Virus record (IMG/VR): IMGVR_UViG_2740892369_000045
DNA from: a virus
Lineage: Duplodnaviria > Heunggongvirae > Uroviricota > Caudoviricetes
Length of the DNA: 15,280 nucleotides
Strand: one strand, 5' to 3'
Part shown: in pieces, positions 4,633 through 5,971 of the stretch
How the letters are laid out: every line of letters begins with the position of its first letter
Position numbering within the stretch: position 1 is the stretch's first letter
Translations under genes and position numbers: made by a program
The notes under the pieces: generated by a model
The model's input: only the letters and a program-made list of their open reading frames with translations
The model's database searches: none
What the model was told of the DNA's origin: nothing

Positions 4633-4854
4633 ATGGCGGTATTTAATATTCCTGATATTTACGGACGCTTTTACCTGGTTAATTTCGATAACGTGAAGGT
4701 GATTTCACTGGCCGAAAATAAAGAATGTGGCGATTTACTTTTTGAATTTAATGACCGCACACGAATGGTGATATCTGCCGGACTTGATCGCGAAGGTGCG
4801 ACAGACGTTTACAGCGGAATATGCCGTTCTGTTGGTGCGAAACAAGTCAGCTAA
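4633..4854 (+). CDS. Hypothetical early protein (positional analogue of Mu kil; function not assigned)
   Basis: ORF track 4627..4854; start moved to the ATG at 4633, which has an AGGTG RBS at suitable spacing and sits just after the B stop. Confidence 0.5.
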   Translation: MAVFNIPDIYGRFYLVNFDNVKVISLAENKECGDLLFEFNDRTRMVISAGLDREGATDVYSGICRSVGAKQVS

Positions 4855-4866
4855 ATGAGGTGTTAT

Positions 4867-5121
4867 ATGAATATGCAATCCTGCGGTAACAAAATGAATT
4901 TATTCGACTCCCTGAACAGCGCGCGCCGTCTGACCGAACTTGCCGGTGCGGTACTGGAACGCAGTAAGCGCTATCCGCAACGTTTTGCACTGAAAACCAC
5001 GCCGCCGGTAGGCAACGTGCAGGGAACCGGTGAAATTGAAATCACCATACAGACCAACGGCCTGCGCCGCCGTGTGAAGGCCACCCGCATCAGCGGCTGC
5101 ACGGTTTACTGGGAGGTGTGA
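4867..5121 (+). CDS. Hypothetical early protein
   Basis: ORF track 4855..5121; the ATG at 4867 is preceded by GAGGTG (4857-4862); co-oriented in the early operon. Confidence 0.45.
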   Translation: MNMQSCGNKMNLFDSLNSARRLTELAGAVLERSKRYPQRFALKTTPPVGNVQGTGEIEITIQTNGLRRRVKATRISGCTVYWEV

Positions 5122-5122
5122 G

Positions 5123-5404
5123 GTGAAAAAAAATCTCATTGCATGGGCGTGGTCGAGTGGTCTTATTGAGTTTGGTTACGTCCTGCCGGAAGGTGCATTG
5201 CCGATAGTTGCCGGAAAGCCTGCCACGGTACGGCATGTGATTGAGGTTATGGCGCGTCATGGACGTGATGAACAGGAGCAGTTACTGGTTCCGGGGATAC
5301 CGGAAGCGGTGACGGAGGAAGAAGCCTTTAATGCCATGATTCGGTTCTGCCGTGAGGTCAGACGCCGGGTCAGTTATCCAAACAGAACGAGGACCAGAGG
5401 GTGA
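5123..5404 (+). CDS. Hypothetical early protein
   Basis: GTG start at 5123 preceded by GGAGGTG (5112-5118); begins 2 nt after the previous stop. Confidence 0.5.
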   Translation: MKKNLIAWAWSSGLIEFGYVLPEGALPIVAGKPATVRHVIEVMARHGRDEQEQLLVPGIPEAVTEEEAFNAMIRFCREVRRRVSYPNRTRTRG

Positions 5405-5673
5405 GTAAAGTCGTACGCATTATTTTCGAATACAAGGAGCACGTTATCCATAAAAACGCTGATGGAACAGTGCGCATGGGGGTAAGTCTGGACATACGTT
5501 CAACCGGGATAAAGCAGAAAGGTGATGGACCCGCCATGATTTTTGGGGTGGTTATGCTCGCGGAAAGCAGAGACTTTGCTGAACTTGTGGCAATGAAAGC
5601 CAGTGCGCTCATGAAAGATATGAGCATGCGTTCCGGGGTTATTAAAGGTAATGAATTTAATCAGCAGGGGTAA
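5401..5673 (+). CDS. Hypothetical small protein, paralogue 1 of a tandem pair
   Basis: 90 aa, GTG start overlapping the previous stop; N-terminus MSKVVRIIFEYKEHV resembles that of the next ORF. Confidence 0.55.
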   Translation: MSKVVRIIFEYKEHVIHKNADGTVRMGVSLDIRSTGIKQKGDGPAMIFGVVMLAESRDFAELVAMKASALMKDMSMRSGVIKGNEFNQQG

Positions 5674-5677
5674 TTCC

Positions 5678-5971
5678 ATGAGCAAAGTACGCGTTATTTT
5701 TGAATTTAAGCATGTTTCGCATGACGAAAAACCGGCAGGCAATGACTGTGTTGAAGTGCATGAAAAGATTGGTGTGGATGTAAAAACAGAACGTGATACG
5801 AATAACAGGCCGACGTCACTCTGTGGCGTTTATGCAAGTATTCTCCAGTATCACAGTCCTGAAATTATTCAGTTTCTCTCAGCGGAATTTCAGGCATCTG
5901 TACAGGCTTTTGGGGCGGATGCCATCATTAAACGCCACCGCGTGCATAAAGCATCAGGCACACTGCAATAA
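5678..5971 (+). CDS. Hypothetical small protein, paralogue 2 of a tandem pair
   Basis: ORF track 5651..5971; start placed at the ATG at 5678 (MSKVRVIFEFKHV...), which aligns with the N-terminus of the 5401 ORF and has an AGGGG RBS-like stretch upstream. Confidence 0.55.
   Translation: MSKVRVIFEFKHVSHDEKPAGNDCVEVHEKIGVDVKTERDTNNRPTSLCGVYASILQYHSPEIIQFLSAEFQASVQAFGADAIIKRHRVHKASGTLQ

What the first reader, a model, noticed from the sequence alone, without database searches (positions are those of the whole stretch)
4633..5971. Five small genes after B, including a tandem pair of diverged paralogues
This is the position where Mu-like phages carry host-takeover genes such as kil. Five small ORFs (73-97 aa) are packed with overlapping or near-adjacent stops and starts. 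The ORFs at 5401 and 5678 share a clearly similar N-terminus (MSKVVRIIFEYKEHV vs MSKVRVIFEFKHV) and then diverge, consistent with a tandem duplication followed by diversification.
Basis: seen in the sequence. Interest (0 to 1): 0.5.

Follow-up and report, generated by a model that had tools for sequence, protein, structure and literature searches.

The report
Hypervariable paralogue pair in Mu-like prophage
The five small genes after the transposition gene B are real early genes of a Mu-like prophage of E. coli O157, and the last two are very old, highly diverged copies of one uncharacterised protein family that is by far the most variable gene of this phage group, which suggests, but does not prove, a role in conflict with the host or with rival phages.

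Summary
The window is an Sp18-type Mu-like prophage of E. coli O157. RefSeq calls five tightly packed + strand genes (73, 84, 93, 90 and 97 aa) between B and gam, and all five are under purifying selection.

ORF2 is the Kil homologue. ORF3 is a free-standing copy of the domain fused to the C-terminus of Gam in Pseudomonas transposable phages. ORF1 is a conserved partner of B with unknown function.

ORF4 and ORF5 are true paralogues, though only about 16% identical overall. Profile-profile comparison gives 92% probability over 75 columns. Shuffled controls score far lower, and the signal survives removal of the shared N-terminus.

Both belong to a 90-97 aa family with no Pfam, NCBIfam or PADLOC match and no convincing structural match. 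ORF5 is predicted to be a long beta-hairpin plus two helices. The family always sits immediately upstream of gam or DUF3164 in enterobacterial Mu-like prophages. It is a sharply bounded hypervariable cassette: median 36% identity against 86-94% for the flanking genes. It varies independently of ner, A and B.

Function is unknown. My best guess, at low to moderate confidence, is a binding protein directed at the host or a competitor. A recent in-place duplication is not shown.

The parts
3698..4630 (+). Transposition ATPase B (context; upstream boundary of the block)
   Evidence: It matches PF09077 Phage-MuB_C at 2.5e-25 and AAA_22. It is 48% identical to Mu B.
4633..4854 (+). ORF1, 73 aa, a conserved protein of unknown function next to B
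   Evidence: It matches phrog_3375 at 8e-47 and is a RefSeq CDS. It is 52-55% identical to the 80-aa protein at the same position after B in Salmonella prophages; an 81-aa gene occupies that position in Klebsiella L094, but its sequence was not compared with ORF1. pN/pS is 0.26. It has no Pfam, NCBIfam or PADLOC hit.
4867..5121 (+). ORF2, 84 aa, Kil homologue
   Evidence: It matches phrog_2679 'Kil protein for bacterial septation inhibition' at 7.8e-46. BLASTP to Mu Kil gives E 1.5e-4 over the C-terminal 39 aa. It is 66-67% identical to Salmonella proteins with a precomputed PF26843 hit. pN/pS is 0.13.
5123..5404 (+). ORF3, 93 aa, a free-standing homologue of the C-terminal extension of Gam in Pseudomonas transposable phages
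   Evidence: It matches phrog_1518 at 3.8e-43. tblastn finds it in 75 phage records, mostly Pseudomonas Mu-like phages, lying inside CDS annotated as gam or host nuclease inhibitor. It is 43% identical (E 8e-19) to residues 176-248 of the 266-aa D3112 Gam, whose Mu_Gam domain covers residues 19-156. It is missing from at least 12 E. coli-type loci.
5401..5673 (+). ORF4, 90 aa, divergent paralogue in the slot family; found only in E. coli
   Evidence: It matches phrog_4107 at 1e-61. Its 41 database relatives are all from E. coli and at least 68% identical. hhalign against the ORF5-family profile gives 92% probability, E 7e-7, over 75 columns. A profile HMM that contains no ORF4 sequence finds every full-length ORF4 allele at E 9e-8 to 3e-4, while the best unrelated ORF scores E 1.8. 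pN/pS is 0.34. The AF2 model is poor (pLDDT 54.7) but has the same order of elements, a hairpin followed by a helix.
5678..5971 (+). ORF5, 97 aa, slot-family member immediately upstream of gam
   Evidence: It matches phrog_2230 at 6e-40. Relatives occur in Salmonella, Serratia and Klebsiella Mu-like prophages at the same position. The AF2 model has pLDDT 83.8 and pTM 0.70, with strands 4-21 and 24-39 and helices 48-58 and 60-77. pN/pS is 0.48, the highest in the operon.
5413..5436 (+). 24-nt segment encoding the conserved N-terminal strand of ORF4 (VRIIFEYK); its partner lies at 5687-5710
   Evidence: This is the top direct repeat in 4600-6000, at 83% identity. Most of the differences are synonymous.
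5687..5710 (+). 24-nt segment encoding the conserved N-terminal strand of ORF5 (VRVIFEFK)
   Evidence: Second copy of the direct repeat reported.
5983..6513 (+). gam (context; downstream boundary of the block)
   Evidence: It matches PF07352 Phage_Mu_Gam at 1.5e-41. It is 57% identical to Mu Gam.

Best explanation
Shown by the evidence:
- The five ORFs are real genes of the early ('semi-essential') operon of an Sp18-type Mu-like prophage. They are co-transcribed and their spacing suggests translational coupling.
- ORF2 is the Kil homologue.
- ORF3 is a stand-alone version of the domain that Pseudomonas transposable phages fuse to Gam.
- ORF4 and ORF5 are two deeply diverged members of one family of small soluble alpha/beta proteins. 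ORF5 is predicted as a long N-terminal beta-hairpin packed against two helices.
- The family occupies a fixed slot directly upstream of gam or DUF3164.
- The first 10-12 residues (consensus MSNKVQVIFTFE; MSKVRVIFEF in ORF5) are almost invariant at the protein level despite synonymous change. The rest of the gene is swapped as a gene-sized cassette between otherwise near-identical prophages.

Inferred:
- The family encodes an early-expressed binding or inhibitor protein.
- Its invariant strand provides a constant interface, either for dimerisation or for docking on a conserved partner. Its variable body recognises a polymorphic target outside the phage's own immunity and transposition machinery. 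That target would be a host factor such as a defence system, or a rival phage.
- The E. coli lineage carries two allele lineages in tandem and so would cover two specificities.
For: Real genes in one operon: RefSeq calls these CDS, each has its own PHROG family, pN/pS is below 1 for all, and no + strand promoter-like site lies in 3600-6700; the only + strand terminator-like site there (4320-4344) is a weak match inside B, upstream of the block.

Paralogy: hhalign of A5 against A1 gives 91.9% probability, E 7e-7, over 75 columns. In controls, 30 column shuffles reach at most score 18.5 against the real 35-38.7, the reversed alignment gives 0.3% probability, and other families from the same operon give 1% or less. 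With the first 11-17 residues removed, the score is still 28.5 against a control maximum of 13.1. HMM detection works in both directions with a clean gap to noise.

Fixed slot: the gene sits at the same position in E. coli, Salmonella, Serratia and Klebsiella.

Hypervariability: median amino-acid identity is 36%, against Kil 86%, DUF3164 94% and B 71%. L085 and L092 are 99%, 96% and 97% identical in B, Kil and the downstream gene, but only 24% identical in this gene. DNA identity between them falls from 90-100% to 30-43% about 25 nt into the gene and recovers at the start of the next gene. More than 100 distinct clusters at 90% identity keep a length of about 97 aa.

Protein-level constraint on the N-terminal strand: the codons vary synonymously while the residues stay the same.

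Independence from phage modules: loci with the same ner carry different alleles, loci with different ner carry the same allele, and the same holds for A and B.

No enzyme or defence-system signature was found.

Against: pN/pS is 0.34-0.48, below 1. Relaxed constraint combined with recombination could explain much of the diversity without any arms race.

Frameshifted or truncated alleles occur, and one E. coli-type locus lacks ORF4 altogether, so the genes are dispensable in the prophage state.

The ORF4 model is of low confidence, so a shared fold rests on profile homology and on the order of secondary-structure elements, not on a superposition.

The fixed position next to gam or DUF3164 would also fit a DNA-end or replication accessory role.
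Confidence: 0.45

Rival explanations
1. ORF4 and ORF5 are phage-internal accessory factors for the function encoded next door, such as DNA-end protection, recombination, replication or transposition, comparable to the genetically defined arm and sot functions of Mu. On this view their diversity reflects weak constraint plus recombination, not conflict.
For: The gene always sits immediately upstream of gam or DUF3164, separated by 8-11 nt. ORF3 in the same block is demonstrably a Gam-associated domain. pN/pS is below 1. The gene is dispensable, since frameshifted alleles exist and L022 lacks ORF4.
Against: The same family precedes two unrelated downstream genes, Gam and DUF3164. Its alleles do not co-vary with the highly conserved downstream gene, nor with ner, A or B. 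Length, the N-terminal strand and the sxG[IL]...GP motif are kept across more than 100 divergent alleles, which is not what simple decay predicts.
Confidence: 0.25
2. The pair arose by a simple in-place tandem duplication in the E. coli lineage, and ORF4 then diverged quickly.
For: The tandem pair is seen only in E. coli-type loci, in 40 of the 41 loci that cover the slot. Relatives in other genera have a single copy. ORF4 relatives are confined to E. coli. The two genes are adjacent and share a 24-nt repeat at their 5' ends.
Against: Overall identity is about 16%. ORF5 is closer to Salmonella alleles (30-35%) than to ORF4. The ORF4 HMM scores Salmonella L085 (22 bits) and Klebsiella L094 (16.5 bits) above every ORF5 allele (8.5 bits or less). 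No DNA similarity remains beyond the 5' end. At this level of divergence tree placement is weak, so the model is disfavoured but not excluded.
Confidence: 0.2
3. The N-terminal similarity is a chance or purely local motif, for example a translational-coupling or recombination-anchor sequence, and the two proteins are unrelated.
For: The first 10-12 codons are the only part that is obviously alike by eye. Allele-swap breakpoints fall just after them, so the segment could act as a recombination anchor.
Against: Profile homology covers 75 columns and persists after the N-terminus is removed, with a score of 28.5 against a control maximum of 13.1. The codons of the motif differ synonymously, so the constraint acts on the protein. 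Both models show the same order of elements, a hairpin followed by helix.
Confidence: 0.05
4. ORF4 and ORF5 are orthologues of phage Mu gp7 (E6), an 87-aa early protein that also begins MAKVIIEIK.
For: Mu gp7 hits phrog_2230, the ORF5 family, at E 0.009 over nearly its full length. It is similar in length, in position between kil and gam, and in its pattern of residues.
Against: hhalign of Mu gp7 against A1, A3, A4 and A5 gives 0.1-0.3% probability. BLASTP, jackhmmer and tblastn find no match. No BFVD structure matches the ORF5 model.
Confidence: 0.1

Closest known systems
Phage Mu Kil (gp5; PF26843 / phrog_2743 and phrog_2679)
   Same: ORF2 matches the Kil PHROG family and aligns with the C-terminal half of Mu Kil. 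It lies in the early operon just after B.
   Different: It is the second gene after B, not the first. It is only about 33% identical to Mu Kil over 39 residues. The killing or morphology phenotype has not been tested for this homologue.
Gam of Pseudomonas transposable phages (D3112, DMS3 and JBD phages; 266 aa)
   Same: ORF3 is 43% identical to the C-terminal extension of D3112 Gam, residues 176-248.
   Different: Here the domain is a separate 93-aa protein two genes upstream of a Mu-length Gam of 176 aa. The role of the extension is unknown. The label 'host nuclease inhibitor' on phrog_1518 probably comes from the fusion proteins, which is my inference.
Phage Mu gp7 (E6)
   Same: It is a small early protein between kil and gam with a similar start (MAKVIIEIK) and a weak hit to phrog_2230 at E 0.009.
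   Different: Profile-profile and structure-library tests give no support. I do not treat it as a family member.
Small early-region host-interference proteins of Pseudomonas Mu-like phages (Tip of D3112; Aqs1 of DMS3). This comparison is from my own knowledge and was not tested here.
   Same: These are also small proteins encoded in the early operon of transposable phages after the transposition genes, and they act by binding host proteins. This is the class of mechanism I propose for ORF4 and ORF5.
   Different: No sequence or fold relationship was found or tested, and their targets (PilB, LasR) have no known link to this family. This is an analogy of kind only.
Hypervariable counter-defence or accessory loci of phages, where conserved flanks surround swappable small genes. 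This is general knowledge.
   Same: The family shows sharp allele-replacement boundaries between near-identical flanks, many allele lineages within one host species, and early expression.
   Different: Here a single homologous family is diversified, with an invariant N-terminal strand, rather than unrelated genes alternating at one locus. No anti-defence activity is known.

Membership tests
Mu Kil family (for ORF2) | Significant sequence match to Kil profiles or to Mu Kil | tested here: met
   ORF2 matches phrog_2679 at 7.8e-46 and phrog_2743 at 1e-3. BLASTP to Mu Kil gives 1.5e-4. It is 66-67% identical to Salmonella proteins with a precomputed PF26843 hit. The local Pfam copy lacks PF26843, since Mu Kil itself gives no hit.
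Mu Kil family (for ORF2) | Expression kills the host or changes its shape, or blocks septation | not testable with these tools
   This needs plasmid expression and microscopy.
Slot family upstream of gam/DUF3164 (phrog_2230 plus phrog_4107; ORF5 and ORF4) | Profile-level homology over most of the length | tested here: met
   hhalign gives 92% probability over 75 columns. HMM hits work in both directions.
Slot family upstream of gam/DUF3164 (phrog_2230 plus phrog_4107; ORF5 and ORF4) | Conserved N-terminal strand, M-S-(N)-K-V-[QR]-V-I-F-x-F | tested here: met
   Column entropy is near zero for positions 1-11 across 95 members from outside E. coli. ORF5 begins MSKVRVIFEF and ORF4 begins MSKVVRIIFEY.
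Slot family upstream of gam/DUF3164 (phrog_2230 plus phrog_4107; ORF5 and ORF4) | Position: last gene before gam or DUF3164 in a Mu-like early operon | tested here: met
   ORF5 meets this, as do all relatives examined. ORF4 lies one gene further upstream.
Slot family upstream of gam/DUF3164 (phrog_2230 plus phrog_4107; ORF5 and ORF4) | Same three-dimensional fold in both paralogues | tested here: inconclusive
   The ORF5 model is good (pLDDT 83.8). The ORF4 model is poor (54.7). The order of elements agrees (hairpin 4-18/24-38 then a helix), but no superposition was possible.
Mu gp7 (E6; phrog_10252) | Significant sequence or profile similarity to Mu gp7 | tested here: not met
   hhalign gives 0.1-0.3% probability. 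The only signal is a marginal hit of gp7 to phrog_2230 at E 0.009.
Gam C-terminal extension domain (for ORF3) | Sequence homology to the region after the Mu_Gam domain in long Gam proteins | tested here: met
   BLASTP gives E 8e-19 and 43% identity to D3112 Gam residues 176-248. PF07352 covers residues 19-156 of that protein.
Diversity-generating retroelement target (considered as a source of the hypervariability) | A nearby reverse transcriptase and a template repeat that matches the variable region | tested here: not met
   No repeat of the variable body occurs in 4600-6000. No large ORF other than known Mu-type genes occurs in the window. Alleles differ at random-level DNA identity (30-43%), not by adenine-specific changes.
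Known anti-phage defence proteins (PADLOC) | Match to a defence-system model | tested here: not met
   None of the five proteins matches any family at E<=1.

The most novel reading that the evidence does not exclude
The ~97-aa slot family would be a previously unrecognised class of early phage specificity proteins. An invariant N-terminal beta-strand would serve as a constant docking or dimerisation element. A cassette-swapped body would neutralise polymorphic host defence systems, or exclude rival phages. Sp18-type prophages of E. coli would carry two specificities in tandem.
Probability: 0.25. Interest if true: 0.65.

Novelty: new member of a known kind. Interest (0 to 1): 0.45.

Why it matters
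Mu-like prophages are common in pathogenic E. coli and Salmonella, yet most of their 'semi-essential' early genes still have no assigned function. This work yields three things.

1. A clean assignment of the block: ORF1, Kil, a Gam-associated domain, and two members of one family.
2. Evidence that one small family is the diversity hotspot of the early operon. It has gene-sized allele swaps and an invariant N-terminal strand.
3. A concrete candidate that can be tested by allele swapping for host- or competitor-directed specificity.

If the family proves to be a counter-defence or exclusion factor, its many natural alleles would be a ready-made specificity series. If it does not, the finding remains an ordinary pair of accessory genes of unknown function.

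Tried and rejected
- Pfam, NCBIfam and PADLOC scans of all five proteins gave nothing.
- The local Pfam copy lacks the Kil model PF26843, because Mu Kil itself gives no hit.
- tblastn of ORF1, ORF2, ORF4 and ORF5 against 50,697 phage records found only two Stx phages that carry an inserted Mu-like element.
- A link to Mu gp7 was pursued after a weak PHROG hit. It was rejected by hhalign and by the structure library.
- Sequence search of the PDB with the family profile and with ORF3 found nothing at E < 0.05.
- BFVD gave no match, and afdb50 was not available.
- The search for related loci with alignment A5 failed because the confirmation step uses the distant first sequence. I used Kil as the anchor instead.
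- A co-variation test against the repressor c could not be done, because most viral contigs start inside ner or A. I used ner, A and B instead.
- Rfam found no RNA family in the window.
- Literature searches found no study of these genes.
- jackhmmer and the family HMM found no relatives in about 40 other Mu-like loci whose Gam is about 55% identical, nor in Mu itself.
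Full report
**Identity of the window.** The region 4633-5971 is 99.9% identical to chromosomal DNA of many E. coli O157:H7 and other STEC genomes. It matches 232 of 5,426 complete E. coli genomes, almost always on the chromosome. In strain FDAARGOS_293 it lies next to frvR, in a prophage whose gene order is repressor, ner-like HTH, Mu transposase, AAA ATPase, five hypothetical proteins, Gam, further genes, gp16/GemA, Mor. Pfam confirms B (Phage-MuB_C) at 3698-4630 and Gam (PF07352) at 5983-6513. This is the Sp18-type Mu-like prophage. Among deposited phage records it appears only as an insert inside two Stx-converting phages.

**Check of the observation.** Five + strand ORFs lie at 4633-4854 (73 aa), 4867-5121 (84 aa), 5123-5404 (93 aa), 5401-5673 (90 aa) and 5678-5971 (97 aa). 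RefSeq calls exactly these five.
- The gaps between B, the five ORFs and gam are 2, 12, 1, -4, 4 and 11 nt. Each start is preceded by a Shine-Dalgarno-like motif, which I read.
- No + strand promoter-like site lies in 3600-6700. The only + strand terminator-like site there (4320-4344) is a weak match inside B. I infer one early transcript with translational coupling.
- Each ORF has its own PHROG family at E 1e-40 to 1e-62.
- Among about 40 related E. coli-type loci from IMG/VR, pooled pN/pS is 0.26, 0.13, 0.13, 0.34 and 0.48 for ORF1 to ORF5. B and gam give 0.11 and 0.10.

All five are therefore real coding genes.

**ORF1, ORF2 and ORF3.**
- ORF2 is the Kil homologue. It matches phrog_2679 'Kil protein for bacterial septation inhibition' at 7.8e-46. 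BLASTP to Mu Kil gives E 1.5e-4 over the C-terminal 39 residues. It is 66-67% identical to Salmonella proteins that carry a precomputed PF26843 Kil_protein hit. The local Pfam copy lacks that model.
- ORF1 (phrog_3375) has no annotated relatives. It is 52-55% identical to the 80-aa protein that follows B in Salmonella prophages. Klebsiella L094 has an 81-aa gene in that position, but I did not compare its sequence with ORF1.
- ORF3 (phrog_1518) has homologues in 75 phage records, mostly Pseudomonas transposable phages, where the match lies inside the gene annotated gam. In D3112 the gam product is 266 aa. Its Mu_Gam domain covers residues 19-156, and ORF3 aligns with residues 176-248 at 43% identity, E 8e-19. 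ORF3 is thus a free-standing copy of a domain that other Mu-like phages fuse to Gam. By the gene-fusion argument it probably works with Gam, which is an inference.
- ORF3 is optional. At least 12 E. coli-type loci lack it, and some of those carry an extra 420 nt or so between ORF1 and kil.

**Are ORF4 and ORF5 paralogues?**
- Pairwise, the N-terminal 17 residues align (MSKVVRIIFEYKEHVIH against MSK-VRVIFEFK-HVSH). BLASTP gives E 8e-4. The Smith-Waterman z-score is 4.8, reached by 6 of 5000 shuffles, and no other pair of the five ORFs exceeds z = 1.3.
- The strongest direct DNA repeat in the block is the 24 nt that encode this strand. Most differences there are synonymous.
- Word-indexed searches found only close E. 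coli relatives for either protein. An exhaustive HMMER search of 1.84 billion representative proteins with the ORF5 profile found five full-length distant relatives of 93-98 aa. Iterating with those gave more than 100 clusters, mostly from Salmonella enterica, plus Serratia and Klebsiella oxytoca.
- The resulting profile has 103 sequences and contains no ORF4 sequence. Against the ORF4 family, hhalign gives 91.9% probability, E 7e-7, over 75 aligned columns, 1-79 against 1-75.
- Controls: thirty column-shuffled versions of the ORF4 alignment reach at most score 18.5 (4.6% probability), against 35-38.7 for the real alignment. The reversed alignment gives 0.3% probability. The ORF1, Kil and ORF3 families give 1% or less.
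- With the first 11-17 residues removed from both alignments, the remainder still scores 28.5 (about 72% probability), against a control maximum of 13.1. The alignment runs through strand 2, an sxG[IL]...GP turn and the helices.
- In a local database of about 2,200 ORFs, the ORF5-family HMM finds every full-length ORF4 allele at E 9e-8 to 3e-4. Only a truncated ORF4 fragment (L043, E 0.71) scores lower, and the best unrelated ORF scores E 1.8. In the other direction, the ORF4 HMM hits a Salmonella member at 1.3e-5 and a Klebsiella member at 8e-4.

I conclude that ORF4 and ORF5 are homologous over most of their length, although they are only about 16% identical.

**Genomic behaviour of the family.**
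- The family member is the last gene before gam in E. coli and Serratia, and the last gene before a DUF3164 gene that replaces gam in Salmonella and Klebsiella. It follows Kil, with or without an ORF3 homologue in between.
- Outside E. coli there is one copy per locus.
- In E. coli-type loci, 40 of the 41 loci that cover the slot carry the ORF4-ORF5 pair. One locus, L022, has B-ORF1-kil-ORF5-gam.
- The gene is extremely variable. Across nine Salmonella and Klebsiella loci, median pairwise amino-acid identity is 36% (range 21-90%). The corresponding medians are 86% for Kil, 94% for DUF3164, 76% for the ORF1 homologue and 71% for B.
- L085 and L092 are 99%, 96% and 97% identical in B, Kil and DUF3164, but 24% identical in this gene. 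Their DNA identity is 90-100% up to about 25 nt into the gene, 30-43% across the body, and 87-100% again from the start of the next gene. This is a gene-sized allele replacement.
- Among the 95 members from outside E. coli, median identity is 41% (minimum 18%). At a 40% identity cut-off the family forms six groups: four from outside E. coli, plus the ORF5 and ORF4 clades.
- Positions 1-11 are nearly invariant, with consensus MSNKVQVIFTFE, while their codons vary synonymously. The constraint therefore acts on the protein.
- In E. coli, ORF5 has the highest pN (0.124, against 0.017 for gam) and the highest pS (0.26) in the operon. This fits old allele lineages moved around by recombination.
- Allele identity does not follow ner, A or B. 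L096 has the same allele as L083 (94%) but a 49%-identical ner. L100 and L102 have a 96%-identical ner but alleles only 25-42% identical by global alignment. Loci with a different transposase type share an allele group.

**Interpretation.** The following points are shown:
- Five real early genes.
- One Kil homologue.
- One Gam-associated domain.
- Two deeply diverged members of a single hypervariable slot family.

The following are inferred. The family has no enzymatic signature, is expressed early and has an invariant edge strand. Its body is swapped independently of the phage's own immunity and transposition modules. For these reasons it most likely encodes a binding or inhibitor protein aimed at a polymorphic target outside the phage, either a host defence factor or a rival phage. 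The two copies in E. coli would then give two specificities. I put about 0.45 on the whole statement. The paralogy and cassette parts are near 0.9, and the functional part is near 0.3-0.35.

The main rival is an internal accessory role next to gam or DUF3164. The position and pN/pS below 1 favour it. The lack of co-variation, and the fact that the family precedes two unrelated downstream genes, count against it.

ORF5 is closer to Salmonella alleles than to ORF4, and the ORF4 HMM prefers Salmonella and Klebsiella alleles to ORF5. Placement at this level of divergence is weak, so the model is not excluded. Orthology with Mu gp7 is unsupported.

**Novelty and verdict.** The genes are already annotated as hypothetical proteins and sit in PHROG families of unknown function. 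Kil and Gam are known. Three things appear to be new:
- The demonstration that ORF4 and ORF5 belong to one family.
- The family's fixed slot and cassette-like hypervariability with an invariant N-terminal strand.
- The assignment of ORF3 to the C-terminal domain of long Gam proteins.

The searches of the held paper library that I ran found no study of these genes. I rate this a new member of a known kind, namely small early accessory proteins of transposable phages. It is of moderate interest because the function is still open and the signal, though clean, is of a type often seen in phage accessory regions.

Noticed in passing
window 5123-5404; L095 (D3112) 1976-2776: ORF3 is 43% identical (E 8e-19) to residues 176-248 of the 266-aa Gam of Pseudomonas phage D3112. 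It is therefore a free-standing copy of the C-terminal extension that long Gam proteins carry after the Mu_Gam domain. The label 'host nuclease inhibitor' on phrog_1518 probably derives from such fusions.
   Followed up: yes
L038 3171-3422: One E. coli-type locus has a single ORF that matches both ORF1 (E 1e-42) and ORF3 (E 8e-15), and it has no kil. This looks like a deletion that fused ORF1 to ORF3 and removed the toxic kil gene.
   Followed up: partly
L022 3355-3989: One E. coli-type locus has B-ORF1-kil-ORF5-gam with neither ORF3 nor ORF4. Its ORF5 allele has a divergent C-terminal half. This shows a single-copy state inside the E. coli lineage.
   Followed up: partly
L021, L027, L030, L032, L036, L039, L042 (about 2690-3115): Seven E. 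coli-type loci lack ORF3 and carry an extra 420 nt or so between ORF1 and kil. Klebsiella L094 has a 136-aa gene, and Salmonella L085 a 116-aa gene, at that place. The early block is mosaic.
   Followed up: no
L083-L092 and L094, gene after the 97-aa family member: In Salmonella and Klebsiella Mu-like prophages a 212-aa DUF3164 protein occupies the position of gam. It is 81-99% conserved between loci.
   Followed up: partly
window 5793-5990 (alternative frame); P0050, P0053; L090, L091, L092: Several family alleles are frameshifted or truncated. Two E. coli proteins run into the alternative frame at 5793-5990. Two Salmonella loci have N-terminal frameshifts in an A-rich stretch, and one has a truncated C-terminus. 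These may be occasional pseudogenes or sequencing errors.
   Followed up: partly
window 8209-8760: This 183-aa protein contains a domain similar to Mu gp9 (32% identity over 101 aa, E 4e-8). The Mu gp9-like function therefore lies downstream of gam here, whereas in Mu gp9 lies between kil and gam.
   Followed up: no
L085 4405-5418: An IS element (DDE_3 transposase) is inserted into the early operon of a Salmonella Mu-like prophage, between the 116-aa gene and kil.
   Followed up: no
LC727881.1 69359-72359; LC727895.1 9378-12542: The only deposited phage records that contain this block are two Stx-converting phages. Both are annotated as carrying an inserted Mu-like phage, so this is a Mu-like element transposed into a lambdoid Stx prophage.
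   Followed up: no
L083/L085/L087 etc., last codons of the 97-aa gene: The nearly invariant C-terminal His of the Salmonella alleles lies in CAC TGA GGTG, which overlaps the Shine-Dalgarno sequence of the downstream DUF3164 gene. That conservation may therefore reflect the ribosome-binding site rather than the protein.
   Followed up: partly
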